A stretch of 64,000 bases of DNA from an uncultured Acidobacteriota bacterium (GTDB lineage Bacteria; Acidobacteriota; Thermoanaerobaculia; Gp7-AA8). Below are positions 20,730 through 36,511 of the stretch, piece after piece (position 1 is the stretch's first letter; every line of letters starts with the position of its first letter). The position numbers and the translations under genes are program-made. The DNA lies in the NCBI GenBank assembly GCA_963741955.1, contig CAVUKB010000007.1, forward strand, positions 960,001-1,024,000, written 5' to 3'. The notes beneath the pieces were generated by a model. It saw only the letters and a list, made by a program, of their open reading frames with translations, did no database searches and was not told the origin of the DNA.

Positions 20730-20951
20730 CCCGGAGAGAGCGCCGCGTACGCGGGCTTCCAGGAGGGTCGACCCGTAGCAGGTCGACGGTCGCCTCTCCC
20801 TCTCCCTCCCGGCGAGGCGGCCGGAGATGGACGTTCGCCGATCGGTCGGCCCCGCGGTGAAGGACACGGCGTCACCACGACCGACGATCGTCCGCGCGAG
20901 CGGATTCCGTTTGCGCGTGTCGTCGGCGGAAGGGACGGTACAATCCACTCC

Positions 20952-22559: not shown

Positions 22560-23354
22560 TCAGGCAGCCGGCGCGGCCTGCTGTCTCGTACCGAGACGAA
22601 TCGCTTTCACGACGGCGATGATCCCGAAGATTACGAAGACCAACGCCCAGATCAGGGCGAGGATGTCGACGACGATCGCTCCGATCGCGTCGGTGATGCT
22701 GACGAGGAAAGAAGGGACGATTCCGTGCAGGAACGCGATCAGAATCGATGCGATGATGGAGGTCGCGTACATCACGAGAAGTCCGTATTGTCTAACGAAG
22801 CGCTGCTGGGCCAGGAGAAGGCACGCGCCGGCTCCGAGCTTCAGGAAAAGGATGAGAGAGAGGATGACGGCGGCTCCACCGCGGTCGAACGATCCGTAAA
22901 GTGCCATATACGCGATCGTTCCGAACGGGACGGCGAGAAAAAGGGTCAGCCGGACGGTCAGCTCGATGAGCAGGACAGGAATCTTCATCAGCGTCGCGAC
23001 AAGGACGAGGAACCCGGCGATCAGACCGATCAGCCCCTGAGTGCGGCCGTGAATGCGGTCTCCAACGACGATCGGAAGGGCAAGAAGGACAACGGTGAGT
23101 AGAAAGAGTCCATCCACGTAAGCCATGGTGTGAATGGCGAGACCGGGAGGGGTGTCGTGGGGTGTCGTCGCATCGCTCAGGTTCTTTTGGAGCTCCTGCT
23201 GTTCTTCGGGAGTCAAGCCCGCCAGATTGGCCGGCGCCGTTCGGGGAGGAGGGGGAACCTGCAGAAGAAGCGTCTCTCCGAGCTCCATGAGCACGGCCAG
23301 TGCGATCAGGACGAGAGCTAAGAACAGGAACGGCTTGCGCATCGAGTCGATCAT
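22560..23354 (-). CDS. Polytopic (~6-7 TM) membrane protein, last gene of the CIS-associated run
   Basis: Multiple long hydrophobic segments. ATGA overlap with the upstream lipoprotein gene. GGAGG RBS. Confidence 0.8.
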   Translation of the reverse strand: MIDSMRKPFLFLALVLIALAVLMELGETLLLQVPPPPRTAPANLAGLTPEEQQELQKNLSDATTPHDTPPGLAIHTMAYVDGLFLLTVVLLALPIVVGDRIHGRTQGLIGLIAGFLVLVATLMKIPVLLIELTVRLTLFLAVPFGTIAYMALYGSFDRGGAAVILSLILFLKLGAGACLLLAQQRFVRQYGLLVMYATSIIASILIAFLHGIVPSFLVSITDAIGAIVVDILALIWALVFVIFGIIAVVKAIRLGTRQQAAPAA

Positions 23355-23770
23355 CGGTCCTCCGCGACGAGACCGCAGTCGGCGCACCGTATGAACAAAG
23401 AGCCTCCGTCTCGCCGGATCGGGATGTGGGCAGGATCTTCCGGAGTAACCTTCATTCGAATGGCGTCACTGCTCCCCGCCGGGGTGTATCGGATCTCTGC
23501 CTCGCTGCCGGCCACCAGATGCAGGTGCGCTTTCCTGATCATCGACGAGGATTTCGCGACGGTCGCAACGCATCGGCCATCGACGTTCAGCAATCCCCCG
23601 ACCGCACAGGGGCCGGAGATCTCCGACATCCTGACCGGCCTGGAAGGGGCGATGCGTGCCAGTGTCTTCAGAATCCGTGGCGGATGTCGAACGTCGATCG
23701 TCCGCGAGTCGCCTCCACAAGCGACGGCGAGCGCGATCAGACTGATGGCGAGGAAGACATGACGTCGCAT
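23351..23770 (-). CDS. Putative lipoprotein (CIS-associated)
   Basis: MRRHVFLAISLIALAVAC lipobox signal, with four further Cys. GGAGG RBS. Confidence 0.7.
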   Translation of the reverse strand: MRRHVFLAISLIALAVACGGDSRTIDVRHPPRILKTLARIAPSRPVRMSEISGPCAVGGLLNVDGRCVATVAKSSSMIRKAHLHLVAGSEAEIRYTPAGSSDAIRMKVTPEDPAHIPIRRDGGSLFIRCADCGLVAEDR

Positions 23771-23785
23771 CGTCCCTCCCGATCG

Positions 23786-23992
23786 TCAATGGTGCATGAT
23801 GAGTCCGGCGATGCTCGAGCCGATGACGACCAGCCCGATCACGACCATCAGGATCGTGTATCCGGGTGAACTGGCCGGCACCGCACCGCTCTCTCCTCTC
23901 GCGTTGCGAACGATGAGCGGCCCCCACTTGAAAATTCCGGCGAGGATGAAAACCACGCCGACGACGATTCCTATGATTGCTCCGACGACCAT
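23786..23992 (-). CDS. Small 2-TM membrane protein
   Basis: 68 aa with two hydrophobic helices. Strong AGGAGGAGG RBS. Confidence 0.7.
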   Translation of the reverse strand: MVVGAIIGIVVGVVFILAGIFKWGPLIVRNARGESGAVPASSPGYTILMVVIGLVVIGSSIAGLIMHH

Positions 23993-24005
23993 GCCTCCTC
24001 CTTCC

Positions 24006-24188
24006 TCATTTGGCTGCGATCATGATGATGCCGCCGACGACGAACGCTGCACTGAGCAGACCCTCGATGACCCGCAGAGCCGTGCTGTTGACGGCGTGTC
24101 CCTGTACGAATGCCGGAATGAACATGAAGATGGAATTGGCAATCCCGAACAGCCCGATCAGAATGAATACGATCCCGATGATGATCAT
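24006..24188 (-). CDS. Small 2-TM membrane protein
   Basis: 60 aa with two hydrophobic helices. GGAGG RBS. Confidence 0.7.
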   Translation of the reverse strand: MIIIGIVFILIGLFGIANSIFMFIPAFVQGHAVNSTALRVIEGLLSAAFVVGGIIMIAAK

Positions 24189-24309
24189 CTGCTTCCTCCC
24201 GTTCAGAACACGTCCCTAATCGCCGGTCACCCGTCATTCGAGTGGAGACGGCACCCGTAGTATCCTTCCATCGGCGCGGTCACACGGTCCAGGTATCGAC
24301 CTCTCGCGC

Positions 24310-25335
24310 TCAGTGAGACGGTAAGGTCATGCTCTTCTCCCTGAATATCTCGGCCTGTCTCTTCAAGAGTGGCGACATCTCTGAAATGTGTGGATCGAGG
24401 AGCCAGGGGTGGAACCGATTCTGTGCGATCACCACGGTCACATGACTCTGCCTGGCGACCTTCGAACCGGCCGGCGGTCTCAGGCCGATCACGGTTCCGA
24501 ACGATCCGTTCGCCACCACCGGAATGGGATCGGGAATGAGGCCGGCCTGATAGATCCGGAGCATTGCGGTGTCTCCCTTCAGGCCGTTGACCCGCGGGAC
24601 TGCAACTTCGTCTGCGACTTCCTCTTCCGAGACCGCCTGCTCGAGCCGAGCGGCCTCGGCATCCGAGAGTCGAGTCGCTTCGTCTTTCGCGAGATCGAGA
24701 GCGACCTGGCGGCGTGTCGCGACGGTCAATGTCACCAGACTGCCTTTCCCGGTCCTCTCGCCCTCACCGGGACTCTGATCGAGCACGATTCCTGCATCGA
24801 CTGTAGCGTCCTTCCGTCCGTCGAGGCCGACCTGAAATCCGGTTTCCTGTAGAGTTCTGATCGCGGCGATGAACGGCTCCCCGTTGACGCCCGGTACTAC
24901 TTTTCTCTGAAGCAGGTACCACACACTGATTCCGACCACGATCAGCACGACGGCGGCAGCGACCCAGATCCACCATAGTGACCTCTGGCCTTCGGCCACC
25001 TTGAAGTGGACCGTCGGACCCTCGTCGTACTCTTCGCCCGTCCTGCGAAGCGCCGAAGTCATGTCGAAGCGGAAGGCGTAAGTGCCGGCCTTGGTTCCCT
25101 GCGGGACCGCCACGTTCACGTCGAACTGATTGACTCCATTCGGCGTGAAGTCACGTTCGCTGTCTCCAGCGATGGTCAACCATTCCGCTTTGGTCGATCC
25201 CTGCGCGACGACTTTGGCCATGGCGCGATCGATCTGGCCGCTCACATTGGTGACCGTATATGCAACGGTCGTCTTCCCCGTAGCGTCCAGAGTCAGTGAC
25301 TGTGAGGGTGTGGTGATTGTGTATTTATGCGCCAT
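24310..25335 (-). CDS. Single-pass membrane protein: N-terminal Ig-like domain, TM, two PASTA-like domains
   Basis: TM WWIWVAAAVVLIVVGISVWYLL. PASTA-like VPGVNG...GIVLDQSPGEG...VTLTVA and VPRVNG...GTVIGLRPPAGSKV...VTVVIA. Confidence 0.8.
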   Translation of the reverse strand: MAHKYTITTPSQSLTLDATGKTTVAYTVTNVSGQIDRAMAKVVAQGSTKAEWLTIAGDSERDFTPNGVNQFDVNVAVPQGTKAGTYAFRFDMTSALRRTGEEYDEGPTVHFKVAEGQRSLWWIWVAAAVVLIVVGISVWYLLQRKVVPGVNGEPFIAAIRTLQETGFQVGLDGRKDATVDAGIVLDQSPGEGERTGKGSLVTLTVATRRQVALDLAKDEATRLSDAEAARLEQAVSEEEVADEVAVPRVNGLKGDTAMLRIYQAGLIPDPIPVVANGSFGTVIGLRPPAGSKVARQSHVTVVIAQNRFHPWLLDPHISEMSPLLKRQAEIFREKSMTLPSH

Positions 25336-25380
25336 GGCGGTTCTCCTGATCTCTCATTCGAGTTCATTCGTCGTGTCGCC

Positions 25381-26196
25381 TCATCCCAGCACTCGCCGGC
25401 TGGCAGCCAGAGCGTTGTCTCGGGCGGTCTGGTCGCGCGTCGCGGGAGGGACACAGACGTGATCGTCCGGCGACGCGTCCCGCCAAACGAACCCTTGGCG
25501 GCAGGAGTCCGGCCCCCAGGGCCCTCCATGAGGCGACCGGCGGCCGGCCGCGAGCTCGTTGTCGCGCGCTGCCTGCGCTCGCGTCTGAGGGGTGACGCAG
25601 ACGTGATCTTCGGGGAAGGCTTCACGCCAGACGAATCCTGTCTTGCAGGTATCCGGTCCATACGGAAGAACCGGAATCACTCTCGCCGGGTCGAATGTAT
25701 GAGTCGGGCCCGACGGCGGCGCAGGTACCGGGTCGGGGATCGGTGCGGGCCCCGGAGGATGCGGTCGAAAGGCGAGGTAACCTCCGACTCCCAGGACCAC
25801 GATTACGAGCGCTGCCGCGACCCAGATCCACCACCGGCTGTCGGGCTTCTTCGCGGTTGCACTCGCCGCGAACTTCACGATCGGCCCCTCTTCATGGTCT
25901 TCACCGGTTTTGCGTGCGGAGACGACGTCGAGGCGAAAGGCATACGAGCCGGCTGGTGTGCCGGAGGGGAGCTCGATGGCGACCACGTATTGATTCACTC
26001 CATTCACCGCGAACTCGCGGTCGCTCTCCCCTGCGATTGTCAACCAGGCGGCCTGCGTGGCGGCCTGTGGGACGACCAGAGCCATTCCGCGCTCCGGTGC
26101 CCCACTGACGTTGGTCACGGTGAATGCAATCTCGCCTTTACCGTTCGCGTCGAGCTGAATCGATTCTTGCGGTGTGGTGATCGTGAATTTGCGCAT
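25381..26196 (-). CDS. Single-pass membrane protein: N-terminal Ig-like domain, TM, Pro linker, duplicated Cys-rich repeat
   Basis: N-terminus paralogous to 24310-25335. TM WWIWVAAALVIVVLGVGGYL. Two GPDxCxxGFVWRxAxPxDHVCV repeats. Confidence 0.8.
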   Translation of the reverse strand: MRKFTITTPQESIQLDANGKGEIAFTVTNVSGAPERGMALVVPQAATQAAWLTIAGESDREFAVNGVNQYVVAIELPSGTPAGSYAFRLDVVSARKTGEDHEEGPIVKFAASATAKKPDSRWWIWVAAALVIVVLGVGGYLAFRPHPPGPAPIPDPVPAPPSGPTHTFDPARVIPVLPYGPDTCKTGFVWREAFPEDHVCVTPQTRAQAARDNELAAGRRSPHGGPWGPDSCRQGFVWRDASPDDHVCVPPATRDQTARDNALAASRRVLG

Positions 26197-26717
26197 CACT
26201 CCTCCCTGCTGGGACGTGTGACGTCGATCGTGCACGTCACATAGGCTGGTTTCTCCATCGCGACGATTCTTTCAATCAGATCGCGATGGGTCGTGGCTTC
26301 GGCCGGAATGTGGAGGTCGAAGTGGAACGGTCTCGTTCCTTCCTCGATGACGAATTCTCGACTGCCGGTGGCAACTGCGAGGATCTCGAGCAGCCCCTTG
26401 GTCGTGCCGCGCCACTTCCCGAGACGAGCCGCGGCGGCGACCAGCTCGCGCAGGCGCCCGGTCCCGGCACTGATACCGGCGGTGCCATCGGAGCGAAGCT
26501 CGAGGATCGGCTCCAGGCCGAGCCAGGACGCGAGAACGGGGACGAATGCATCCGGCGCGGTGAACGGGTTCAGCACGGCGCTGAATGTGGAGAGCACCCG
26601 TTCCGATGGGGCGTGCATCGATTCCATCACCCCGAGCAGTGCGGCAAGGGGAGGAGAGAAGTCCACCGTGCGCCGGATCACGGTCGGAAGGAGCTGGGCG
26701 ATCTGCTCCTGCTTCAT
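26196..26717 (-). CDS. CIS baseplate wedge / phage tail protein I-like
   Basis: LNPFTAPDAFVPVLASWLG, WRGTTKGL and EKPAYV motifs typical of P2 gpI-like proteins. Overlaps the baseplate J stop. Confidence 0.8.
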   Translation of the reverse strand: MKQEQIAQLLPTVIRRTVDFSPPLAALLGVMESMHAPSERVLSTFSAVLNPFTAPDAFVPVLASWLGLEPILELRSDGTAGISAGTGRLRELVAAAARLGKWRGTTKGLLEILAVATGSREFVIEEGTRPFHFDLHIPAEATTHRDLIERIVAMEKPAYVTCTIDVTRPSREE

Positions 26718-29284
26718 CCGTTCTGCTCCCCTTCGACCACGATGTCGATCTGGTGCTCCGCCGTGCAGAAGAGCCAGGTGGAAGGAATGGTGACCTTGTC
26801 CGTGAACGCGGGTGACGAGCAGGGTTGAAACGTCGTGCCCCCGTCGACGCTCCGGTAGACCCCGCGGGGCCCGGCTGCCAGGAGCCAGTGTCCGGAAGGA
26901 TCGACCGCGACGGCGTAGACCGGCTCGAAACGCGTCAACTCCTGAATGGGGAGATTCGAGGAGACCTCGCTCGTGCTCCATCGTGCATTCGGCACCGACG
27001 TGTCGAGTGTGGCGACGCCGGCGCGTTGTGTCGCGGCATGAACGACCGAGCCGTAAAAGGCGAGGGACTGGCAACTTCCTCCATCCCACCCCTCGGAGAA
27101 CGGGACCCACTCTCCGCCTCCCTCCGGCGTTTCCCAGATGCGCCAGCGATGACAGCCCTTCCCCACCGCGCCGGGCGCGGCAACGCCCGCCCAGAGAAAG
27201 GCGTTCGGTCCTTCACTCTGCGTGGCCAGGACCCGTATGTCTTCTCCACTCAGTCCGATCGGCCGGAACGTGCCGGGGCGTCCGTTCTCGTTGGAGAGGT
27301 AGATTCCTCCGGTGTTGCGCGCTGCGACTGCGACGCTCGTCGCCCCCAGAGCACCGACGGAGGCCGCGACGCTCCAGAACCCGAGGTCCTGATTCGCAGA
27401 GTCGACCAGCACCTGGACCGCCGTCGCTCCTTCCTGCATCGAGAGCTCGTACAGACCCTTGATCGTGGCGAGCAGAAGGACCGGAGATCCATCCCGGCGA
27501 GTCCATTCGATGTCGTCCACTCCGTGTGCGATGTTCACGCTCTCCCGCCAGGTCTCACCGCAGTCGGTGGAGATGCGCACCACGGACGATTTGCGATCCC
27601 GGGCGACGCTGATTGCGGTAACCAGCCCCGGCGCCGCCGGATGCGACTCGATCATCGAAGCGTTCTCGCCCGGAAAGCGGCCGGACGTCTCCCATCCTTC
27701 GCCGGAGTCGGTGGTGCGGAAGAAGGAGTCCCCTGCCGCGGCATAGAAGGTCCGCGGCTGGTATGCGTCCGTGGCGACGCTGTTGACGTCTCGCTCCGGA
27801 ACCCGATCCACGACCAGCCGGACGTCATCCGCATATCGCACGGCGGGATCCGCGAGGAGAAGGTCGTAGATGTGGCCGATGCGAAGCGGGTCGCCGAAAT
27901 GCCACCCGGTCACCCTCCGTGGTGACGGAAGAGGAGTCAGGGTCTGGTGCAGTCGATCGATGATCCTCTCATGAACGCGAGCCGGATCTTCACCGCGGCG
28001 AATCACCACGTGGGCTTCGACCCGAATCGGTTTACAGCGCGCCCATGCCGCAACGACCTTCGTCCCCAACGGGCGGCGTTCATCGAGTGCGTGCTGCGCA
28101 CGATGCAGAGCCTCGTCAGTCTGATACTCGGCGAGAACCGCTTCGGTGACGCCCGCGCGACGCGCCTCGATCGGAATGCTCGGGACCATGAGCACCTCCA
28201 CCGTTCCAGGGCGGGCGTGCCTCCAGAGGTCTGCGCTGGTCAGGGCGATGGCTCGCTCGATGGCCCCGGACGAATTGGCCGCCACCCGCTCGAAATCGCG
28301 CGCCGTGACCGCTCGCTCGAGTGAGTGCAGCTCCTGGGGGCCACGCAACATCGCGTTCTCGTCGGACTCTGCATCGCGTCCGCCGACCGCCGGAGCAGGA
28401 TTGGTCACCTTGACCAGCGGGATCGCGTCCTTCAACACGGTGAGGGAATTCGCGACCACGTTTCCCGCGGCACCGCCGCCGCGGCGGTACCACAGCCGGA
28501 TCTCGGCCCCGCTGTCCGGAATCGCTCCCAGGGTTCCCGCGGTCTCGGCCAGCGTGTTGTCGGGTCTGCGCGCATGCACGGCCGACGCGAACGTGATGGT
28601 TCCGGCGAGCCGGTCCGTGATGTAGACGTAGGGGTCGCCGCCGGTCTCGGCGAAACTGGGAACCTCTCTCCACACCCGATAGCGCTTCCCTTCGTATGCG
28701 CGGATCGACGCACGGTCCGGCGCTTCCGCATCCTCGATCTGCACGCCGACCACGAGGTCGAGGTCATCACCGGTCGGCGCCACGATCGGCGGACGTTTCG
28801 CGCGGACGCGCAGTCCAGGCAGGCCACTCCCGACTCCGGCCAGCTCCGCGTCGACGTGATCGCAGTGGTATGCGACGACGTCGCCGGCTGCCGTGCCGGG
28901 AGCCAGCTCGAGCGGCTCGGAGGTGGTGAAGACCGGCGCCGATGACGTCCCGCTGCGTGCCAGCGTGATCCGAGTTCCGCGCGGGATCGTCACTCCGCCG
29001 CCTTCCTTCTCCCGCGTGAATCGAAGCCGGACCATCGCTGCGGAAGGCGGCCGCAGCGTCACGCCGACGAGACGAAGAAACTCGATGTACGCGCTCGCCG
29101 GCAGCTGGTTCAGCCGATACAGCATCACCTCGGTCAGATAGGCGAAGACATCGACCAGCACCATTCCGGGGTCGCTCACGGACCTGTCGGTCCAGTCCGG
29201 CGCCAGCCGGTCGATGACCTTGTTCGCCTCGATGACGAGCTGGTCGAATGTTCGATCGTCGAGTTTCGGTGGCGAGAGCGGCAT
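26714..29284 (-). CDS. CIS baseplate J-like (Afp11-like) protein with an inserted BNR beta-propeller
   Basis: MPLSPPKLDDRTF...WTDRSVSDPG, GGGAAGNV, GGRDAES and RAVTARDFE. BNR motifs RTTDSGEGW, ISTDCGETW and RSVDGGTTF. Confidence 0.9.
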   Translation of the reverse strand: MPLSPPKLDDRTFDQLVIEANKVIDRLAPDWTDRSVSDPGMVLVDVFAYLTEVMLYRLNQLPASAYIEFLRLVGVTLRPPSAAMVRLRFTREKEGGGVTIPRGTRITLARSGTSSAPVFTTSEPLELAPGTAAGDVVAYHCDHVDAELAGVGSGLPGLRVRAKRPPIVAPTGDDLDLVVGVQIEDAEAPDRASIRAYEGKRYRVWREVPSFAETGGDPYVYITDRLAGTITFASAVHARRPDNTLAETAGTLGAIPDSGAEIRLWYRRGGGAAGNVVANSLTVLKDAIPLVKVTNPAPAVGGRDAESDENAMLRGPQELHSLERAVTARDFERVAANSSGAIERAIALTSADLWRHARPGTVEVLMVPSIPIEARRAGVTEAVLAEYQTDEALHRAQHALDERRPLGTKVVAAWARCKPIRVEAHVVIRRGEDPARVHERIIDRLHQTLTPLPSPRRVTGWHFGDPLRIGHIYDLLLADPAVRYADDVRLVVDRVPERDVNSVATDAYQPRTFYAAAGDSFFRTTDSGEGWETSGRFPGENASMIESHPAAPGLVTAISVARDRKSSVVRISTDCGETWRESVNIAHGVDDIEWTRRDGSPVLLLATIKGLYELSMQEGATAVQVLVDSANQDLGFWSVAASVGALGATSVAVAARNTGGIYLSNENGRPGTFRPIGLSGEDIRVLATQSEGPNAFLWAGVAAPGAVGKGCHRWRIWETPEGGGEWVPFSEGWDGGSCQSLAFYGSVVHAATQRAGVATLDTSVPNARWSTSEVSSNLPIQELTRFEPVYAVAVDPSGHWLLAAGPRGVYRSVDGGTTFQPCSSPAFTDKVTIPSTWLFCTAEHQIDIVVEGEQNG

Positions 29285-29704
29285 TCAGGATTCCTCCCCC
29301 GTCAGTGACATCGAGATGGCGATCTCGTCGACCCGTCGTGTGGCGCGGACGCGGTATTCCAGGCGGATGTCGAGCCTGGCCGGTTCGAACGGGTTCCGGC
29401 CGGCGTCGATCTCCGTGATCTCCACCCGTGGCTCGAACCTTTCGATGGCCTGCCGCACGTAGTGAATCGCGAGCCCTGCAGTGGTGTCGTCGTTCGGCCA
29501 GAACATCAGCCGATTGAGGCTGCAGCCGTAGGCCGGACGCATCACCCGCTCGCCATTGCGGGTGGTGAGCAGCAGCAGAATCGCCTGCCGTACGGCCGCC
29601 TGATTCGAAGTCATCGTGACGCCACCGGTCGGAGAGACGTGAAGTCCGGGGCTCTCGTCGTCGAGGTCCGGATGCGAGAATTCGAGCGTGCGGTACATTC
29701 TCAT
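29285..29704 (-). CDS. GPW/gp25 family baseplate protein (Afp9-like)
   Basis: VRQAILLLLTTRNGERVMRPAYGC...AIERFEPRV. Confidence 0.9.
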   Translation of the reverse strand: MRMYRTLEFSHPDLDDESPGLHVSPTGGVTMTSNQAAVRQAILLLLTTRNGERVMRPAYGCSLNRLMFWPNDDTTAGLAIHYVRQAIERFEPRVEITEIDAGRNPFEPARLDIRLEYRVRATRRVDEIAISMSLTGEES

Positions 29705-30045
29705 GCTGGTTGCTCCGAGACGAACGACTGCCCGGCCTGCCGCACTTCGTACCTCACGACGCCGGGAGGGGTCCCGTCCGTGAAGCCGGTAACCTCGTCG
29801 AGACAGATTCGCCGTCCCTCGATGAGCAGAAGCGGCGAGTATCCGGTGATGACAGTCAGAGTCATCGTGCACGGCTTGATGGTCGGAGCGGTATTCGGAC
29901 ACCCCGAGATCGAACGGTTCTCGGGATCGCGCTCGACCAGCACCTTGCGTAGCCCGATCGTGACCAGATCCTGTGTGGCCTCGATCTTCACGTGTCCCAG
30001 CTCGTGTGTGCAGACGATGGCGGCGTCTTCGGTCAGAAGGAGCAT
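29701..30045 (-). CDS. PAAR-like (DUF4280-type) spike tip protein
   Basis: 114 aa directly after VgrG, with the metal-binding pattern CTH...GCP...KPC. Confidence 0.7.
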   Translation of the reverse strand: MLLLTEDAAIVCTHELGHVKIEATQDLVTIGLRKVLVERDPENRSISGCPNTAPTIKPCTMTLTVITGYSPLLLIEGRRICLDEVTGFTDGTPPGVVRYEVRQAGQSFVSEQPA

Positions 30046-30047
30046 GC

Positions 30048-31538
30048 TCAACTCCCCCTCTCGAAATTCACCAGGCTGCCGCGCACGGTGATGGTGTGTC
30101 CCGACGCGTCGAGCTCGAGATCTCCGCTGGCGTGGATGGTGAGCTTCTCGGGCGCCAGCTCGACGTAGCTTCCCCCTTCGTCCTGCATCCGGATCGACCG
30201 GGAGAGATCGTCGAACATCAGCTTCTGTCCGCCGGGAGTGAGAAGACTGCATCGCCTCACCCGGCCCCCTTCGATGCCCGAGTCGGGTGGGCCATCGGGA
30301 TACAGTCCTCCGATCACGAAGCCGATCCCGGGCTCACCTCGAGGGAACATCGCCACCACGCGATCCTCCACGTCCGGAAGGGAGATCCATCCCTTGGCCG
30401 TGCCGGCACCGGTGGTGAGCACCGGCAGCCACTCGGTCTCGAGATCACCGCACGTCGGAAGGGACAGCTTCACGCGTCCGCGGCGCTCCGGGTCCTCCAC
30501 GCTCGTGACCACGCCGATGACCGCAGTGGCGGCGCGAGCGGTCGTGCGCGCGCGCGGCATTTCGCTCGAGATCCGAGAGATGAAGCCGTGCGCACGGCTG
30601 ACGATGTGATCGACCGTGGTGACGACCGCGCGATGGCCGTCGCCGTCCGTCACTCCCTCCACCTCCACCGCCGCTCCCGGTGTGAGCTCTGGATCTCCGA
30701 CGCAGGTTGCCCAGAGCCCCACCTCGCCTGCGGCGCGTCGCGCGAGGTCGCCGTTCGCGAGAGCTGACGCCTGTGCCTCGTCCGACAGCAGCTCGTCGGT
30801 CAGTGTCCGTTCGGTCGCCGCAACGGTCGCGAGCTCCTGTGGTACGGTCCGCGCGCGCTCGACACGCGCGTCATGCACCTCGACGAGACAGGGGTCCCAA
30901 CCGATGACCGTCACGCTGTCACATACGGTCTCCGCATTGAGCTCCAGGCGGACCTCGCGAAGGTTCTCGCCGAGCGTGAGCGGTCGTACGTCGTCGCCGG
31001 CCTGAAGCGGGAAGAGGCGGAGCGTGTCTCGTTCCACGAAGAAGTAGAGAGCGGAGCGCTCGCAGACGTCGGTGAGAAAATCGAGATCGGTTTGCCGATT
31101 CTGGATCAATCGTGTGAACGAGGGACCGTCAGGTCCCCGCACATCGAGTCCAAGGGGAGCCACGAGCTCTCGCGCGAGCGAGCCGGCAGTGAACCGGACC
31201 TGCGCCGCTACCCGCTGGGTCTTGCGCAGCCGATGCAGCACGTCATACGCGCGGAGCCGTACCTTCCGTCCCTCCGCGCGAGTCCACGAGTGCTCGAGTG
31301 CCGTGACCTCTCCGGAGAAGAGGGGAGGACGATCGCCGATCGTGACCTCCAGGGCCGCGCCGATCGAAGGAGCCGGCCCCCTCTCGCCGAGGACCTCCGA
31401 GAATGTGATCTCACAGGCCGTGGCGAGGGAGAGACGCTGGCGCACGAGAATAGAGGTCAACGCGTTGGCCCATCCGGCCGGTACGGCCGAGCCATCGAGT
31501 GCGATGTGAACCGCGGGAAGTGTCGCAACTGCGGTCAT
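30048..31538 (-). CDS. vgrG: VgrG/gp27-gp5-like spike protein (Afp8-like)
   Basis: QNRQTDLDFL gp27-like hub, OB-fold motif IGVVTSVEDPERRGRVKL...LPDVEDRVVAMF, and a short beta-helix C-terminus. Confidence 0.9.
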   Translation of the reverse strand: MTAVATLPAVHIALDGSAVPAGWANALTSILVRQRLSLATACEITFSEVLGERGPAPSIGAALEVTIGDRPPLFSGEVTALEHSWTRAEGRKVRLRAYDVLHRLRKTQRVAAQVRFTAGSLARELVAPLGLDVRGPDGPSFTRLIQNRQTDLDFLTDVCERSALYFFVERDTLRLFPLQAGDDVRPLTLGENLREVRLELNAETVCDSVTVIGWDPCLVEVHDARVERARTVPQELATVAATERTLTDELLSDEAQASALANGDLARRAAGEVGLWATCVGDPELTPGAAVEVEGVTDGDGHRAVVTTVDHIVSRAHGFISRISSEMPRARTTARAATAVIGVVTSVEDPERRGRVKLSLPTCGDLETEWLPVLTTGAGTAKGWISLPDVEDRVVAMFPRGEPGIGFVIGGLYPDGPPDSGIEGGRVRRCSLLTPGGQKLMFDDLSRSIRMQDEGGSYVELAPEKLTIHASGDLELDASGHTITVRGSLVNFERGS

Positions 31539-32239
31539 GCTCTCTCCAGCTCGTCGCGTGGCGGCATCCGGAGCAACTCTCCTGGAGTCAACCGCAGTGG
31601 ATCCTCGACGCCGTTGAGTGCTGCGATCGCTTTCCACAGAGAGGCGTCTCCGTAATAGCGATAGGCGATCTCGTCGAGACGTGCGACGGCAGGCGATTCG
31701 GAGGTCTCTCGAGGAGACTCAGGCGCGATTTCGTGGACGTGCGTCTCCTCCGGGCTTCCTGCCAGGAGGGGAGTCGGCGGCTCTGCCGAATTGTCGTCCT
31801 CGACGCGCAGGAGTCTCATCCGCAGCCACGAGCGCCCCGGTGCACCTTCGCCGTCGAACGACTCCAGCCGCTCTGCAATCGCGGCGATGACCGCACGCAC
31901 ATTCCACGTCTTTCCCCACACCAGGCGGACGAAGCGCGCGTTGCTCGCTCTCGAGTCGCCGTACGCTTCGCTCAGTCGCCAGAGCGGCCGGGTCAGTGTG
32001 CGGACGTCGGTGACCGGAGCAGGTCCCTCGGCGAGAGAGACGTCGAAGAGGAGATCGACGGTCAGCTCCGTCGTCCCGCCTCCACTCTGCAGCAACGGGT
32101 CGTCGATCACGCCTGGTTGGCTTCCCGCGCCGAGCAGAGGTCGAATGCCCGCCCAGCGCCGTATCACCACACTCTCAGGGTTGAGCATGCAGGCGATCCG
32201 TTCGCCGGTCTGTTCGACGAGAAACGCTACGCGGTCCAC
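31535..32239 (-). CDS. CIS tube initiator with LysM-like C-terminus (Afp7-like)
   Basis: CMLNPE, LTVDLLFD, VRLVWG and RLDEIAYRYYGDASLWKAIAALNGVEDP. Confidence 0.85.
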   Translation of the reverse strand: MDRVAFLVEQTGERIACMLNPESVVIRRWAGIRPLLGAGSQPGVIDDPLLQSGGGTTELTVDLLFDVSLAEGPAPVTDVRTLTRPLWRLSEAYGDSRASNARFVRLVWGKTWNVRAVIAAIAERLESFDGEGAPGRSWLRMRLLRVEDDNSAEPPTPLLAGSPEETHVHEIAPESPRETSESPAVARLDEIAYRYYGDASLWKAIAALNGVEDPLRLTPGELLRMPPRDELERA

Positions 32240-33189
32240 GCGGTCCCCCGTTGCTCTTCATCGAGACGCCGCAGATGTTCGCCGTCAACCGCGCCCTCCT
32301 CGCGGTCCCTGATGGTCGTCGGGATGAAAGGAGGGAGGTCCGGGAGCGCCGGCCACCGGTCGTTCAGGTCCGGTGGCGGAGGCAGCTCCGTCACCGCCCG
32401 GCGGGACCGAACCGGCGGAGCGGTGTCGACCGACGGCCACTGCAGACGCGGAGGCTCCGGTTCCGGAGCGGAAAGGGAGAGCGACATGGACGTGCGAGAA
32501 GTCCCGGCACTCGAGGCAAGAGGCGGCACTTCTTCTGCGGGATTCGACCGGGTCGCGGTGGGCGTCTGCGCCGGCGCTTCCGTGTGCAATCGCGGAGGTT
32601 CGGTGCGGGGCGCCGGTTCAGGCTTCCGTGTTCGTGGCAGTGTCGAAGCATCTCGGGGCAGAGGCGGCTTCGCCGTTGTGTGCTGCTGCTGGTTCCGCGG
32701 TGAATCCGGAGGGACGGAGTCCCCCCGGGTGGCGCGGGACCGCGCTTTCAGAAACGTCGCGATGCGAGGGGGGCGAGAAGCACGATCCCGTACGACGGCG
32801 GGAGATCCGTCTCTACGTGTTCGTGGCTCGTCCGAGTGTTCTTCGCGATCGCCGGTTGCTCTCGAGAGTCGAAAGATCCGCATCGACGTTTTCGATGAGG
32901 GGCGAGGCGTGTTACATCGCCTCTCGGGAGTGGATGTCGACGGACCCGGATTCGGCGGCTCGGGCCGGAATCGTGGCGGTACAGGAGACGCCGGACCACC
33001 CTCGTACTTCAACAGCTGCGGCGCGCTCCTGCGCACGCGCTCGAGCCAGCGTTCCGGCGGCCCGGCGTCGAACGACGTCGGCGATGGATCGGCGGGAGGT
33101 GAGGGGCGCTCCTCGAGCGCCTCCAAGCCGCGTATGAGTGCACGCCGCAGAGCGCGGCGCAGTGCGAGCCAGAGATCGTGACCGCTCAT
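32227..33189 (-). CDS. Pro/Arg-rich low-complexity CIS protein (possible tape-measure analogue)
   Basis: Overlaps both neighbouring genes. Mostly disordered, with ordered-looking ends GPPERWLERVRRSAP and WPALPD...HLRRLDEEQRG. Confidence 0.65.
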   Translation of the reverse strand: MSGHDLWLALRRALRRALIRGLEALEERPSPPADPSPTSFDAGPPERWLERVRRSAPQLLKYEGGPASPVPPRFRPEPPNPGPSTSTPERRCNTPRPSSKTSMRIFRLSRATGDREEHSDEPRTRRDGSPAVVRDRASRPPRIATFLKARSRATRGDSVPPDSPRNQQQHTTAKPPLPRDASTLPRTRKPEPAPRTEPPRLHTEAPAQTPTATRSNPAEEVPPLASSAGTSRTSMSLSLSAPEPEPPRLQWPSVDTAPPVRSRRAVTELPPPPDLNDRWPALPDLPPFIPTTIRDREEGAVDGEHLRRLDEEQRGTAWTA

Positions 33190-33680
33190 GCCACCGCTCC
33201 TCCTGCCGGTGCCACGCGCTCGAGGGTCTCGTAGACGATGGTCATCGACTCGATCGCGATCTCGCGCGCCATCGCGTCGAGAGGGGCGGCGTTCCACCTC
33301 GAAACCCACGCCTGCGCCAGATTCCAGCGCATCACTTCGCGTGCACCATCGCTGTCGTAGAGGACGATCGAGACGTTGCGCCGCTCGACCTTCCCATTGA
33401 CGCCGCTCAGCATCCAGTTCCACAGATCTGCGGAACTGGTTAGCCCGTAACGGAGCGTGATGTCGGCGTACTCGACGGGCCCGGGGATCCGTCGCACGAT
33501 CCGGCTCCGTCCCTCGGCATAGCGGATCGCATGCACCGATGCCCCCATCCCGCTGCATTCAGTGAACGCGGCGTCCGCAACGCCCTGGATCTCGACTCGA
33601 AAGTTGTAGCCGCGGTAAGGATCATTGACCGTACCGGTGTTTCCTTTGCTCGCGTTCTTGGTCGCGTCCTGATCAGGCAT
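33186..33680 (-). CDS. CIS inner tube protein (T4 gp19/Afp1-5-like)
   Basis: DPYRGYNFRVEI...FTECSG...ITLRYG...WNLAQAWVSRW...IAIESMTIVYE. Confidence 0.93.
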   Translation of the reverse strand: MPDQDATKNASKGNTGTVNDPYRGYNFRVEIQGVADAAFTECSGMGASVHAIRYAEGRSRIVRRIPGPVEYADITLRYGLTSSADLWNWMLSGVNGKVERRNVSIVLYDSDGAREVMRWNLAQAWVSRWNAAPLDAMAREIAIESMTIVYETLERVAPAGGAVA

Positions 33681-34917
33681 TGCCGCCCTCCTGTTCCACC
33701 TGCGCGCCGGCCGCGCTCTGGCCGATTCGGAAGATCACGAACTCCGCGGGTTTGACCGGCGCCACGCCGATCCGGATCACCACCATTCCCGCGTCGACCA
33801 CCTCGGGCGGATTCGTCTCCCGGTCGCATTGCACGAAGAAGGCTTCGTCCGGGGTCGCGCCCGCAAGGGCTCCCGCTCTCCAGAGCAGCATCAGGAAGGC
33901 GCGCACGTCGCGCCGGATCTGCTGCCAGAGCGGATCGCCGTTGGGCTCGAACACAACCCATCGGGTGCTTCGCTCGATCGATTTCTCGATCATGCAGAAG
34001 AGCCTGCGGACGTTGAGGTAGCGCCATTCGCTTCCGGGGGGCGCGATGGTGCGTGCTCCCCAGATCAGAATTCCGTCGGGATCGAACGAGCGGATGCAGT
34101 TCACGCCGTTCGCGTTGAGGTTGCCCTGCTCCGCGTGTGTGACGGTGTAGGTCAGGCCGGTCGCGCCGCGCAGAGTCTTGTTGGCCGGTGCAACGTGGAC
34201 CCCGCGCTCTGCATCGGTGCGCGCCCACACGCCGGCGATATGTCCGGAGGGGAACATCTCGATCGTGTTCGCAGGTGCGAAAGGGTCAGGTGCGAACAGG
34301 TTCGGGAAATAGACCGTCCCCATCCCGGTGGCCGAGGCGCGCGGTCGCGCACCGGACGAGGCTTCCCGTTCCGAAGCTGGCGGGGGCGTGTCGTCGCTTC
34401 CGGACCGCGTCTTCTTTGAGCTGGCGGTGGCCGATGCCACCTTCGTCAGAAGATCGAGATCGCGGATTCCGGATGGTGAGTCGAAAATCGCGACGCGATC
34501 CTTCATCTTCTCGCAGTGAGAAAGGATCGCTTCGTAGCTCGCCGCGTCGGTGTAGCCGGGAGCGGCGACGATGGCCACACTGTCGACCTCCTCGAGTACG
34601 TCGACGCCCTTCCGTCCCGACGCATCGCCGACGAGCTGATTCTCGGGGCCGACATTGACCACGTAGCAGAGTCGGCCGCCGTTCTGGAAAAATCCGAAAA
34701 CAGCGTTCGACAGCGGCGTGCTCGTCGCATCGGGAGACGCGAGCTCCTTGCGGAACTGTGACCAGTTGGTGATCGCCACCGCCTCGTTCACACGCGCGCG
34801 CGCGTTCGGAGCCTGGCCGACGAAGCCCGCGGTGCTGGTTCCGACCCCTTCGATCGGGCGCGCGCCCGTCGATACCTCCTCGACGTAGATCCCGGGAGTC
34901 AAGTACGAAGTCGCCAT
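33673..34917 (-). CDS. CIS contractile sheath protein (Afp2/3/4-like)
   Basis: YLTPGIYVEEV, FFQNGG, PSGHIAGVWARTDAERGVHVAPAN, WRYLNVRRL, WVVFEPN and PVKPAEFVIFRI. Confidence 0.95.
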   Translation of the reverse strand: MATSYLTPGIYVEEVSTGARPIEGVGTSTAGFVGQAPNARARVNEAVAITNWSQFRKELASPDATSTPLSNAVFGFFQNGGRLCYVVNVGPENQLVGDASGRKGVDVLEEVDSVAIVAAPGYTDAASYEAILSHCEKMKDRVAIFDSPSGIRDLDLLTKVASATASSKKTRSGSDDTPPPASEREASSGARPRASATGMGTVYFPNLFAPDPFAPANTIEMFPSGHIAGVWARTDAERGVHVAPANKTLRGATGLTYTVTHAEQGNLNANGVNCIRSFDPDGILIWGARTIAPPGSEWRYLNVRRLFCMIEKSIERSTRWVVFEPNGDPLWQQIRRDVRAFLMLLWRAGALAGATPDEAFFVQCDRETNPPEVVDAGMVVIRIGVAPVKPAEFVIFRIGQSAAGAQVEQEGGNA

Positions 34918-35589
34918 TCATCCCTCCAATGCACTCTCGTCGAGCGCGACGCGAAGTCTTTCGCCCGGACTGGTCCGAACCGTCATGACCTGGCCCCTGG
35001 CACGTATGACCACCGAGACAGGCCTGTCCGCTGGAATGGTGGGGAAGTGAAACGAGCCGTTCTCGTCCGTCCTTCCGTAGAGCTGGAGGGCGGGAACCTC
35101 GATCTTCGCGCCGGCGATCGCCGTATCGTCCGGTCCGAAGACGTCGCCGGCGAGCGACGCGGTCTGAGTCCCTTCGACGACCAGCGGATGACGGACGAGT
35201 GGTGCTCGCTCTTCGGGACGCTCTACACGCAGAGGAACGCGAACCACGAAAGCGGGTCGGGGTGCGATGTGGAACGCGTTCCAGAGGTCGAGCGGGAGTG
35301 GATCGAGTGAGACCTTCCACGACGTCACGTCCATTGCGGCGAACGCCAGCGTTCCGAGCCAGTCGTGGCTCTTCGGGACGTCGCCTCCCGACGTCGTCAC
35401 CAGATACTCCAGGATCAGCTCCCGCGGTGGGCGTCGCGAGGTACGGGGCGCCGGGACCGGCACCATCGACAATAGAGTGATGTGGACTGCGGGAGATTCG
35501 TCCATTGAGGGAGGCGCCACATCCACATCCAGGTCGGGCACGATGCTCTTCGCCCATTCCACCAGTTGCCGGTCCGTTTCGCCGATCAC
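34918..35589 (-). CDS. Putative CIS cap/terminator (Pvc16/Afp16-like) fused to a carboxypeptidase-regulatory-like domain
   Basis: First gene of the operon, GTG with GGAG RBS. LEYLVT and LWNAF...RPAF segments, then C-terminal GDVFGPDDTAIAGAKIE...TDENGSFHF. Confidence 0.65.
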   Translation of the reverse strand: MIGETDRQLVEWAKSIVPDLDVDVAPPSMDESPAVHITLLSMVPVPAPRTSRRPPRELILEYLVTTSGGDVPKSHDWLGTLAFAAMDVTSWKVSLDPLPLDLWNAFHIAPRPAFVVRVPLRVERPEERAPLVRHPLVVEGTQTASLAGDVFGPDDTAIAGAKIEVPALQLYGRTDENGSFHFPTIPADRPVSVVIRARGQVMTVRTSPGERLRVALDESALEG

Positions 35590-36022
35590 GTGTTCTCCAT
35601 TCGAGATCCTGGGGTGCGTTCGCAAACGGATCGCGTCCGGGCTTTGTGTGGCCGGGACCCACCCCGTCTCGCGAGCCTCGTCAGGCGCCGGTGTGCCACC
35701 GTCTGGACCTACGTCTCGTGAGAGGTGCGTACGACGGTCGAGCCGAAGGCCTCATACCCCTGAGTCCGTCCAGGGCAAACGGCTGAATTCCCACCCTGAC
35801 GCGCCGCCCGTGAGCGTCATGAATATTTGCTATCCGTACAAACTGGGGTGAGACGCGGAGATCTTCAAGGAGAAAAAGTTGGTGTAACCTGCTGAATTCG
35901 AGCTGCGACTTCAGCGCGGGCCGCGTGTGGGCGCTTTCCCTCGGTGTGGGGGCGCGTGTGGAGCGAACTCATACACGCGAATCGTCAGGACTCGCGCCCA
36001 TTGCCGATACCATCGAATCGAT

Positions 36023-36506: not shown

Positions 36507-36511
36507 CCGGC

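What the first reader, a model, noticed from the sequence alone, without database searches (positions are those of the whole stretch)
22560..35589. Minimal contractile injection system with its own envelope module: candidate new membrane-tethered CIS
Seen: 16 co-oriented genes, most overlapping or abutting. Ten are phage-tail-like CIS genes (cap-like, one sheath, one tube, Pro-rich, initiator, VgrG, PAAR-like, gp25, baseplate J, wedge). They run straight into six genes that all encode membrane or lipoproteins. No AAA+ ATPase (Afp15), tail fibre (Afp13), capsid, terminase, integrase, lysis enzyme, TssJLM or ClpV is recognisable in the locus. Established: Afp/PVC/MAC eCIS are released by lysis, whereas the Amoebophilus T6SS-iv, the Anabaena thylakoid-anchored tCIS and the Streptomyces cytoplasmic CIS (with membrane protein CisA) work attached to membranes. 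Inference: this particle docks on the inner membrane through a dedicated trans-envelope complex unrelated to TssJLM, and may fire in response to periplasmic signals.
Basis: partly seen in the sequence, partly recalled or inferred. Interest (0 to 1): 0.9.

Follow-up and report, generated by a model that had tools for sequence, protein, structure and literature searches.

The report
Compact injection system with membrane sensors
A soil acidobacterium carries a stripped-down phage-tail-like injection machine that, in six bacterial phyla, travels with its own membrane proteins, many bearing a cell-wall-sensing domain, which suggests a so far undescribed way of docking or triggering such machines from inside the cell.

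Summary
Sixteen co-oriented minus-strand genes (22560-35625) encode ten contractile-injection-system (CIS) parts, followed by six membrane proteins or lipoproteins.

The closest solved relative of the sheath, baseplate J, wedge and cap is the cytoplasmic CIS of Streptomyces coelicolor. This locus differs from it in four ways:
- a short 414-aa sheath;
- a J protein fused to an Asp-box propeller;
- no AAA+ ATPase and no tail fibre in the cluster;
- two clade-specific membrane families.

**Family 1 (g11/g12)** is bitopic: a cytoplasmic Ig-like domain, one membrane helix, then a variable outer domain (PASTA in 29 of 59 members). It is encoded where fibres usually lie.

**Family 2 (g16)** is a ~260-aa polytopic protein with no Pfam family and no PDB fold match.

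Both families follow this CIS clade across six phyla. A search starting from g16 returned 80 metagenome loci. None of them had at least 6 kb on both sides without CIS genes.

The three small genes g13-g15 are lineage-specific, so a six-gene trans-envelope complex is not supported.

Most likely this is an intracellular CIS recruited to, or triggered at, the inner membrane by cell-wall-sensing adaptors, analogous to but not homologous with CisA or tCIS Cis13. I found no description in print. I rate it a new variant of a known kind.

The parts
34918..35625 (-). g01, cap / tail terminator (Cis16/Afp16-like) with a C-terminal Ig-like domain. The likely true start is the GTG at 35589.
   Evidence: A profile of 12 homologues hits the PDB 9gts Pvc16-N cap protein at E 3.1e-7. 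CarboxypepD_reg matches residues 158-218 at E 4.2e-6, below the Pfam cut-off. The homologue consensus starts near residue 13.
33673..34917 (-). g02, the single sheath protein, 414 aa (short form).
   Evidence: Phage_sheath_1 and Phage_sheath_1C. Best PDB hits are the 534/539-aa Streptomyces CIS sheaths, E 6.4e-98. It is the only Phage_sheath_1 match in the genome.
33186..33680 (-). g03, inner tube protein.
   Evidence: Phage_T4_gp19, E 8.5e-37.
32227..33189 (-). g04, Pro-rich low-complexity protein at the position that a tape-measure or plug gene occupies in phage tails. Function is inferred only.
   Evidence: No Pfam family. ATG at 33189 preceded by an AGGAGG run. Only weak, partial matches in relatives; the tube-to-initiator interval ranges from about 0.2 to 1.4 kb between loci.
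31535..32239 (-). g05, tube initiator (Cis7/Afp7-like) with a LysM-like C-terminus.
   Evidence: CIS_tube, E 2.4e-9. PDB 9gtp_P 'LysM domain-containing protein' at E 1.8e-6 and 9rce_H at 1e-6.
30048..31538 (-). g06, VgrG-like spike encoded as one contiguous ORF.
   Evidence: Phage_base_V E 5.5e-17; Phage_GPD E 2.3e-6, below its cut-off. Start at 31538.
29701..30045 (-). g07, 114-aa probable spike-tip protein (PAAR/DUF4280-like; a lead only).
   Evidence: No Pfam or PDB sequence hit. Atlas: nearest clusters are unnamed 113-aa proteins (0.97). More distant clusters carry PAAR_motif (11% of members) or DUF4280 (22%). Structure resembles the N-termini of TNT/AHH toxin fusions, TM 0.79-0.80 by query.
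29285..29704 (-). g08, gp25-like baseplate wedge protein.
   Evidence: GPW_gp25, E 2.2e-23. Start at 29704.
26714..29284 (-). g09, baseplate J (Cis11-like) fused to a C-terminal Asp-box/BNR-like propeller of about 370 aa.
   Evidence: Baseplate_J E 1.1e-17. Sortilin-Vps10 E 1.6e-5 over residues 495-597, below its cut-off. PDB 9gtp_1K at E 1.9e-62 covers residues 113-490 only. Three Asp-box-like motifs were read by eye in the translation. The full length is conserved in 21 homologues.
26196..26717 (-). g10, wedge protein (P2 gpI / Cis12-like).
   Evidence: Tail_P2_I E 3.7e-6. PDB 9gtp_E at E 1.6e-6. Start at 26717.
25381..26196 (-). g11, bitopic adaptor: cytoplasmic Ig-like N-domain, one TM helix, Pro-rich linker, then two Cys-containing repeats outside.
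   Evidence: TM at residues 119-145. N-domain is 53% identical to that of g12. No Pfam family. Full-length homologue in L037.
24310..25335 (-). g12, bitopic adaptor: cytoplasmic Ig-like N-domain, one TM helix, then PASTA domains outside.
   Evidence: PASTA E 5.9e-18, two stretches. AF2 model pLDDT 91: beta-sandwich 1-113, helix 121-144. Foldseek finds PapD/MSP/ASH-like folds, best E 1.1e-6.
24006..24188 (-). g13, 60-aa two-helix membrane hairpin; lineage-specific.
   Evidence: Translation and hydropathy. Homologue found only in L019, E 1.8e-14. Shine-Dalgarno-like run before the ATG.
23786..23992 (-). g14, 68-aa two-helix membrane hairpin, paralogue of g13; lineage-specific.
   Evidence: TM segments 1-29 and 37-69. 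g13 vs g14 E 1.6e-6.
23351..23770 (-). g15, putative lipoprotein of 139 aa; lineage-specific.
   Evidence: Hydrophobic N-terminus at residues 4-23 followed by a cysteine (the lipobox was read by eye). Homologues only in L020 (E 6e-10), L097 (147 bits) and weakly L170.
22560..23354 (-). g16, 264-aa polytopic membrane protein (7-8 helices) of an unnamed family found only beside this CIS clade.
   Evidence: No Pfam family. AF2 pLDDT 80. No PDB fold match by Foldseek at E <= 0.001. 532 representative proteins at E <= 0.001 among 1.84 billion. Linkage evidence.

Best explanation
The locus encodes a compact contractile injection system of a distinct clade whose closest solved relative is the cytoplasmic CIS of Streptomyces.

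**Shown**
- The clade has about 12 conserved genes: cap, one short sheath, one tube, a variable Pro-rich gene, a LysM tube initiator, VgrG, a spike-tip protein, gp25, a J-propeller fusion, a wedge protein, one to three bitopic adaptors, and one polytopic membrane protein.
- The two membrane families occur only with this clade in everything I searched.

**Inferred mechanism**
- The particle is built in the cytoplasm without an Afp15-type ATPase.
- The adaptors (g11/g12) sit in the inner membrane, with a folded Ig-like domain in the cytoplasm and a variable sensor domain, often PASTA, in the periplasm.
- The cytoplasmic domain binds the periphery of the baseplate, probably J. This brings the particle to the membrane and couples firing to the state of the cell wall.
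- g16 is a membrane partner of unknown role, possibly a docking site, a conduit or a target.
- With no recycling ATPase, firing is a single shot. I think it punctures the producer's own envelope: most likely self-directed death or lysis under envelope stress, as in Streptomyces, and less likely outward delivery as in a T6SS.
- g13-g15 are local additions of this lineage.
For: **Closest solved relative**
- The sheath, J, wedge and cap all find the S. coelicolor CIS structures (9gtp/9gts) as their best PDB sequence match; the tube initiator has 9gtp_P as a close second after 9rce_H. The entries are identified in the data-availability passage of PMC12237407.

**Linkage of g11/g12 to the clade**
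- 21 of 21 genome loci that reach beyond the wedge gene carry a g11/12-like gene there. By record title these loci come from six phyla.
- Of 60 loci holding J, 53 have at least one such gene: one copy in 37, two in 14, three in 2.

**Linkage of g16 to the clade**
- Of 80 loci retrieved through g16, 0 have at least 6 kb on both sides and no CIS genes; 39 hold CIS core genes.
- g16 keeps its proximity through rearrangement: same strand in 13, opposite strand in 23, and upstream of the cap gene in L172/L175/L176.
- The g16 profile hits 2 of 401 Acidobacteriota genomes, the same two that carry the orthologous sheath.
- None of 56 more distant CIS loci has a g16 match by tblastn or HMM. For the g11 N-domain they give no tblastn match and only marginal HMM hits, E 0.002-0.07.

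**Adaptor architecture**
- The AF2 model of the g12 N-domain has pLDDT 91: a beta-sandwich followed by a TM helix.
- There is no signal peptide, and Lys-rich residues precede the helix across the family alignment. This points to an N-in topology.
- PASTA is present in 29 of 59 members.

**Predicted contact with the baseplate**
- J plus the g12 N-domain gave a verdict of weak support: score 0.46, best of 3 controls 0.01.
- The mark was reached by 58 of 80 solved complexes and 2 of 110 mismatched pairs. At 0.60 or under it was reached by only 7 of those 80 solved complexes and by both of the mismatches that passed.
- The runs agree in at least 92% of contacts, and the partner's pLDDT is at least 81.

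**Precedents in print**
- tCIS Cis13 binds the baseplate with its N-terminus and has a TM helix at aa 122-154 (PMC8894136; passages read).
Against: - The complex prediction is only weak support. By the tool's own calibration such a pass is more often wrong than right unless the guess was already likely.
- There are no expression or localisation data; only DNA runs hold the stretch.
- A BNR-type propeller on J and an Ig-like domain on the cap are also what one would expect of receptor-binding decorations on a released particle.
- g16 is on the opposite strand in 23 of 36 loci, so it is often not co-transcribed with the CIS genes.
- Neither membrane family is universal. L173 and L166 show no g11-like gene in the sequence available, and L036 has no g16 within 4.7 kb.
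- No conserved effector gene was found, so what the system delivers is unknown.
- An Afp15-like ATPase encoded elsewhere in the genome is not excluded. There are 45 AAA matches genome-wide, and I classified only the one in the window, which is KaiC-like.
Confidence: 0.55

Rival explanations
1. It is an ordinary extracellular CIS or tailocin released by lysis. The J propeller and the cap Ig-like domain act as receptor binders in place of fibres. The membrane proteins serve release, immunity or regulation rather than docking.
For: J carries an Asp-box/BNR-like propeller (sub-threshold Sortilin-Vps10 match). The cap carries a CarboxypepD_reg-like domain. Such domains often bind glycans on particle surfaces (my own knowledge). 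R-type tailocins also lack an AAA+ ATPase, as stated in PMC12210884 (passage read).
Against: No holin, endolysin or other lysis gene is conserved within up to 10 kb in 17 loci. The closest solved relative is a cytoplasmic CIS. The conserved bitopic proteins sit at the fibre position, and their conserved domain is on the cytoplasmic side. The J to N-domain contact reached the tool's mark, weakly.
Confidence: 0.2
2. It is a permanently anchored, outward-firing machine that works like a T6SS. g11/12 and g16 form an inner-membrane dock from which the tube is fired into neighbouring cells.
For: The linkage evidence is the same as for the best explanation. There is a conserved polytopic partner that could form a conduit. 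Carriers include predatory or social Myxococcota.
Against: No conserved periplasm-spanning or outer-membrane component was found; g15 is not conserved. There is no recycling ATPase in the cluster. There is no conserved effector or immunity pair. The nearest characterised relatives act within the producer (PMC12237407; PMC12998442).
Confidence: 0.2
3. The membrane genes are unrelated passengers that merely travel on the same mobile island as the CIS.
For: The locus is flanked by toxin-antitoxin genes typical of islands: VapB/PIN and AbiEii-like. g13-g15 are indeed not conserved. g16 is often convergent with the CIS genes.
Against: Linkage persists at 25-45% protein identity across six phyla and through changes of order, strand and copy number, while no other flanking gene is conserved. 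The g16 family was never found away from the CIS where the contig allowed a test.
Confidence: 0.05

Closest known systems
Streptomyces coelicolor cytoplasmic CIS (CIS-Sc, subtype IId) with the membrane protein CisA
   Same: It is the best PDB sequence match for the sheath (E 6.4e-98), J (1.9e-62), wedge (1.6e-6) and cap (profile, 3.1e-7). Both have a single contiguous VgrG and a single J gene. Neither has fibre genes. [quoted passage not shown]
   Different: The sheath is about 120 aa shorter. J carries an extra C-terminal propeller. No Cis15 ATPase lies in the cluster. The adaptor N-terminus is a folded Ig-like domain, whereas CisA's is described as largely unstructured. The outer domain is PASTA or another domain, not a substrate-binding-protein-like domain. 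There is an additional conserved polytopic protein. Carriers are mostly diderm and span six phyla. I did not compare CisA's sequence directly, because none was at hand.
Thylakoid-anchored CIS of Anabaena (tCIS), anchor protein Cis13
   Same: The gene at the fibre position encodes a protein whose N-terminus binds the baseplate and whose TM helix lies at about residue 120-150. It ties the particle to an internal membrane (PMC8894136).
   Different: The tCIS sheath is a much weaker match (7b5h, E 8e-50). Cis13 is a fibre-like trimer with a triple helix, not an Ig-like sandwich. tCIS also uses a Cis12 extension and a Cis19 crown. The membrane in question is the thylakoid.
Roseiflexus/Deinococcota intracellular CIS lineage (ISME J 2026, PMC12998442)
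   Same: It lies within or next to subtype IId, is intracellular, has no close cisA homologue, and occurs in Chloroflexota and Deinococcota, phyla that also hold members of the present clade.
   Different: The Roseiflexus cluster includes an ATPase gene (figure legend read). No membrane adaptor is reported for it. I did not compare the sequences.
Afp/PVC/MAC extracellular CIS and R-type tailocins
   Same: They share the phage-tail-like core: sheath, tube, LysM initiator, VgrG, gp25, J and cap.
   Different: The present clade has no Afp15 ATPase, no Afp13 fibre, one sheath gene instead of three, and no lysis cassette. PVC and Afp sheaths are weaker matches, E 6e-51 to 2e-46.

Membership tests
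Phage-tail-like contractile injection systems (Afp/PVC superfamily, as in Chen et al. 2019) | Sheath, tube, LysM tube initiator, VgrG spike, gp25 and baseplate J | tested here: met
   Pfam matches for all six.
Phage-tail-like contractile injection systems (Afp/PVC superfamily, as in Chen et al. 2019) | Afp16-like cap / tail terminator | tested here: met
   The profile of 12 homologues hits the 9gts Pvc16-N protein at E 3.1e-7. The single sequence gives only E 0.019.
Phage-tail-like contractile injection systems (Afp/PVC superfamily, as in Chen et al. 2019) | Afp15-like AAA+ ATPase in the cluster (present in more than 85% of dbeCIS loci, PMC6899500) | tested here: not met
   No further conserved gene within up to 10 kb in 17 loci. 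The only AAA match in the window is a KaiC-like gene 14.5 kb away. A copy elsewhere in the genome is not excluded.
eCIS subtype IId / Streptomyces-type cytoplasmic CIS | Closest sequence relationship of the structural proteins to IId members | tested here: inconclusive
   The best solved matches are S. coelicolor CIS proteins. No phylogeny with dbeCIS reference sequences could be made. In a J N-domain tree, 47 clade members separate from only 4 usable outgroups.
eCIS subtype IId / Streptomyces-type cytoplasmic CIS | Single afp11 copy and a single contiguous afp8 ORF (PMC6899500) | tested here: met
   One J gene and one VgrG ORF.
eCIS subtype IId / Streptomyces-type cytoplasmic CIS | CisA homologue downstream of the baseplate genes | tested here: inconclusive
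   A bitopic protein occupies the same position and has the same inferred topology. Its domains differ from the published description of CisA. The g11-N profile finds nothing in the actinobacterial loci L042-L048, L067 and L089. CisA itself was not available for a direct comparison.
eCIS subtype IId / Streptomyces-type cytoplasmic CIS | Free-floating cytoplasmic particles that fire inside the producer | not testable with these tools
   Needs cryo-ET and genetics.
Type VI secretion system (i-iii) | TssJLM membrane complex, ClpV, TssB/C sheath | tested here: not met
   The sheath is of the Phage_sheath_1 type. No gene in the locus matched these families in Pfam. The rest of the genome was not searched for Tss families.
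Thylakoid-anchored CIS (tCIS) | Cis13 fibre-like anchor with a TM helix, Cis12 extension, Cis19 crown | tested here: not met
   The wedge protein g10 is only 173 aa. The anchor-like proteins have an Ig-like fold, not a fibre fold. Cis19 was not searched for.
R-type tailocin / defective prophage tail | Tail fibres, tape measure, lysis cassette, phage regulators | tested here: not met
   None is conserved in 17 loci. The flanks hold toxin-antitoxin, GGDEF and surface-protein genes. g04 might be a tape-measure analogue, but it matches no family.

The most novel reading that the evidence does not exclude
This would be a widespread, so far unclassified CIS lineage, with hundreds of diverged members in public data and carriers in at least six phyla. 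Firing would be gated by a cell-wall sensor. PASTA-bearing (or otherwise tipped) bitopic adaptors would grip the propeller-decorated baseplate from the cytoplasmic side and, together with a dedicated polytopic membrane protein, turn peptidoglycan damage into a single suicidal or outward shot. That would make it a 12-gene, ATPase-free, signal-coupled injection machine, distinct from T6SS, eCIS, tCIS and the CisA system.
Probability: 0.35. Interest if true: 0.85.

Novelty: new variant of a known kind. Interest (0 to 1): 0.72.

Why it matters
How intracellular CIS meet a membrane and what tells them to fire is an open question. The Streptomyces work names CisA but could not show a direct contact, and the Roseiflexus work notes that no cisA homologue exists there.

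This clade offers a simpler and more tractable answer:
- a folded cytoplasmic domain that can be tested for baseplate binding;
- a known sensor domain (PASTA) that points to a concrete trigger, namely cell-wall fragments;
- carriers in cultured Myxococcus and Corallococcus strains.

It is also about the smallest conserved gene set seen for a CIS (about 12 genes, no ATPase). That bears on what is minimally needed to assemble one.

Surveys that require or key on an Afp15/Cis15 ATPase would tend to miss this clade or file it with phage tails. The filtering rules are described in PMC6899500 and PMC12210884.

Tried and rejected
**Steps that led nowhere**
- The search for homologous proteins with the g12 N-domain gave only 7 hits. 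The word index was too insensitive, so I used locus scans instead.
- Foldseek of the g16 model against the PDB gave nothing at E <= 0.001. The pdb_via_wide library was not on the machine.
- The Atlas look-alikes of g16 are unnamed Actinomycetota membrane-protein clusters at 0.89-0.91, a lead only. The g16 HMM found nothing in the 56 distant CIS loci, actinobacterial ones included.
- I looked for a Cis15-like ATPase in an actinobacterial locus to use as a probe. The Walker-A ORF of L067 had no Pfam family, so I dropped the idea. The genome's 45 AAA matches were not classified, apart from the KaiC-like one in the window.
- The promoter/terminator scan gave no more sites than the shuffles did, so it says nothing about operon structure.
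- Sequencing runs: no RNA holder was listed. One soil-metagenome DNA run holds the stretch.
- The J N-domain tree had only 4 usable outgroup sequences out of the 56 distant loci, because their tblastn matches are fragmentary. It is not a test of subtype.

**Literature**
- Searches found no paper describing this clade. No paper holds both 'contractile injection' and 'PASTA domain'.

**Rejected**
- The idea that all six membrane genes form one conserved module.

**Unpublished genome**
- G030 appears only as a row with a long-sheath match.

Full report
**What is there**

The window is part of a 5.4-Mb, 63% G+C genome, 99.1% complete. Its closest named relatives are Thermoanaerobaculia, phylum Acidobacteriota (record titles). 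One soil-metagenome DNA run holds the stretch.

Between 22560 and 35625, sixteen ORFs lie on the minus strand. A codon-usage model trained on 1018 long ORFs of the genome ranks these frames first over most of the stretch; it is weak at junctions, over g04 and over g13-g15. Start-codon analysis shows 4-nt start/stop overlaps or abutting genes at most junctions. The only sizeable gap is 121 nt, between g12 and g13.

**The CIS core**

Pfam names the sheath, tube, CIS_tube initiator, VgrG, gp25, baseplate J and P2-gpI wedge.
- The first gene is a cap. A profile of 12 homologues hits the Pvc16-N cap protein of PDB 9gts at E 3.1e-7.
- The 114-aa gene after VgrG has no Pfam or PDB sequence match. It looks PAAR/DUF4280-like only through Atlas look-alikes.
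- The Pro-rich gene matches nothing.
- The genome has a single Phage_sheath_1 match.

**Nearest known system**

By sequence against all PDB chains, four structural proteins find the S. coelicolor CIS structures first: the sheath (E 6.4e-98, against 5.8e-51 for Pvc2 and 8e-50 for the Anabaena tCIS sheath), J (1.9e-62), the wedge (1.6e-6) and the cap. The LysM initiator has 9gtp_P (1.8e-6) as a close second after 9rce_H (1e-6). The paper's data-availability section names 9GTP and 9GTS as that system.

The differences are clear:
- The sheath has 414 aa against 534-539 aa.
- J has about 370 extra C-terminal residues. They carry three Asp-box-like motifs (read by eye) and a sub-threshold Sortilin/BNR match.
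- There is no ATPase in the cluster.

**The clade and its spread**

A scan of one genome per species with a J alignment returned 79 loci. Twenty-three of them (L018-L040) match J over its full length, propeller included. By record title they come from Acidobacteriota, Myxococcota (including cultured Myxococcus and Corallococcus strains), Pseudomonadota, Cyanobacteriota, Chloroflexota and Deinococcota.

These loci share gene order and a short sheath. Within 41 relatives, only G014 has a close orthologue of the sheath. Five other genomes of the same taxonomic family (G014 itself among them, on another contig) carry a different, long-sheath CIS.

**The membrane genes**

g11 and g12 are paralogues with the same plan. 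A 110-residue N-domain is followed by one TM helix and then an outer part: two PASTA stretches in g12, two Cys-containing repeats in g11.
- The AF2 model of the g12 N-domain is confident (pLDDT 91). It is a beta-sandwich of the PapD/MSP/ASH kind.
- No signal peptide is present, Lys-rich residues precede the helix across the family, and PASTA is an extracytoplasmic domain (my own knowledge). Together these put the Ig-like domain in the cytoplasm.

g16 is a 264-aa protein of 7-8 helices with no Pfam family and no PDB fold match by Foldseek. g13 and g14 are paralogous two-helix hairpins. g15 looks like a lipoprotein.

**Test of linkage, starting from the CIS**
- In all 21 of the L018-L040 loci that reach beyond the wedge gene, a g11/12-like gene follows it. 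Two contigs end earlier.
- g16 is present in 14 of the 23. Eight of the nine without it end within about 1 kb of the last adaptor gene or earlier. L036 runs on for 4.7 kb without it.
- All-against-all clustering of the ORFs of 17 loci found no other conserved gene within up to 10 kb. The remaining clusters are antisense shadows of the real genes.
- None of the 56 more distant CIS loci from the same scan (Cellulomonas, Kofleriaceae and others) has a tblastn match to g11, g12 or g16. The g16 HMM finds nothing there either. The g11-N HMM gives only marginal hits, E 0.002-0.07.

**Test of linkage, starting from the membrane protein**

A metagenome scan with the g16 alignment returned 80 loci. They sort as follows:

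| Outcome | Loci |
|---|---|
| CIS core genes present | 39 |
| Only a g11/12-like gene, on a short contig | 9 |
| Less than 6 kb on both sides, cannot be judged | 32 |
| At least 6 kb on both sides and no CIS genes | 0 |

- g16 is on the same strand as the wedge gene in 13 loci and on the opposite strand in 23, at a distance of 0.5-7.4 kb.
- In L172, L175 and L176 it lies upstream of the cap gene.
- In 401 Acidobacteriota genomes the g16 profile hits only G000 and G379. These are the two genomes with the orthologous short sheath in the same sample.
- An exhaustive profile search found 532 representative proteins at E <= 0.001 (305 at <= 1e-30) among 1.84 billion. The best 150 listed are stand-alone proteins of about 195-335 aa.

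Across all 60 loci that hold J, 53 have one to three adaptor genes and 51 have g16. There are exceptions: L173 and L166 show no adaptor gene in the sequence available.

g13 has a homologue only in L019. g15 has homologues only in L020, L097 and, weakly, L170.

**Outer domains of the adaptors**

Of 59 full-length family members, 29 carry PASTA. Others carry Ig-like, CBM96 or lectin-like domains, or nothing that Pfam names. Five also match ASH/HYDIN/Cep192 Ig models. A conserved inner domain joined to a variable outer domain is the pattern expected of an adaptor that links one constant partner to different signals.

**Does the adaptor touch the baseplate?**

The complex prediction of full-length J (21-row alignment) with g12 residues 1-118 (26 rows) gave a verdict of weak support.
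- The score was 0.46 (three runs: 0.45, 0.51, 0.46); the best of 3 controls was 0.01.
- The mark was reached by 58 of 80 solved complexes and 2 of 110 mismatched pairs. At 0.60 or under it was reached by only 7 of those 80 solved complexes and by both mismatches that passed.
- The runs agree in at least 92% of contacts, and the partner's pLDDT is at least 81.

This fits the hypothesis but does not establish it.

**Comparison with what is known**
[quoted passage not shown] It is encoded where fibres usually lie, is needed for contraction, and is predicted to bind Cis11 (PMC12237407). Its N-terminus is described as largely unstructured and its outer domain as substrate-binding-protein-like, so the likeness here is one of role and position, not of fold.
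- tCIS Cis13 of Anabaena binds the baseplate with its N-terminus and has its TM helix at aa 122-154 (PMC8894136). The layout is the same, but the protein is fibre-like.
- The Roseiflexus/Deinococcota intracellular CIS has an ATPase gene and no cisA homologue (PMC12998442).
- Survey papers define eCIS partly by Afp15, or filter on Cis15 (PMC6899500; PMC12210884). That may explain why this clade has not been singled out.

**Verdict**

It is not supported for a six-gene trans-envelope complex.

I place it as a new variant of a known kind: a membrane-adaptor-coupled intracellular CIS. Three things remain unknown: whether it is tethered or only recruited, in which direction it fires, and what it delivers.

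**Limits**

There are no expression data, no direct comparison with CisA, no reference phylogeny, and the supplementary tables of the survey papers were closed.

Noticed in passing
window 36237-36901 (+) and 37433-37906 (-): Directly upstream of the cap gene lie a VapB-like antitoxin (Rv0623-like/RHH) with a PIN-domain toxin gene, and an AbiEii-like nucleotidyltransferase toxin fragment. This flank is typical of a genomic island.
   Followed up: partly
window 15621-20729 (+), 12169-15657 (-), 20730-21746 (+): Downstream neighbours are a 1702-aa protein with 12 DUF7933 stretches plus DUF11/NEW3 repeats, a 1162-aa BNR/Sortilin-repeat protein, and an endonuclease/exonuclease/phosphatase-family protein. 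None is conserved beside the CIS in other genomes.
   Followed up: partly
window 21878-22378 (-): A strongly acidic 166-aa ORF lies just after g16 on the same strand. It has no Pfam family and no match in any related locus. It could be a lineage-specific cargo or unrelated.
   Followed up: no
window 6557-8059 (+): A KaiC-like double P-loop ATPase. It is the only AAA-type match near the locus and is not an Afp15-like protein.
   Followed up: yes
window 39134-40582 (-): A MASE1-GGDEF diguanylate cyclase lies 3.5 kb upstream of the CIS.
   Followed up: no
L013/L025 (G379:C6), g16 homologue at L013 4939-5787: The g16 homologue of G379 matches in two pieces, and the tblastn alignment contains a stop. 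This may be a frameshift, a pseudogene or an assembly error.
   Followed up: no
L172, L175, L176 (metagenome contigs): A variant arrangement in which g16 sits upstream of, and co-oriented with, the cap gene at the head of the CIS operon.
   Followed up: partly
window 25381-25800 (-), C-terminal part of g11: Two roughly 45-residue repeats, each with two cysteines, follow a Pro-rich linker. They match no Pfam family. The same outer domain occurs in a gammaproteobacterial locus (L037 7718-8686).
   Followed up: no
G002, G004, G008, G019 and G014:C362 (same taxonomic family as the window's genome): These relatives carry a different CIS with a 500-800-aa sheath frame, about 46% identical to the window's sheath over the C-terminal half only. 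G014 holds both types.
   Followed up: no
L094, L080, L071, L074 (Kofleriaceae CIS loci), ORFs downstream of J: Large ORFs of about 470-740 aa give marginal hits to the adaptor N-domain profile (E 0.002-0.007). This may be a very distant analogue or chance.
   Followed up: no
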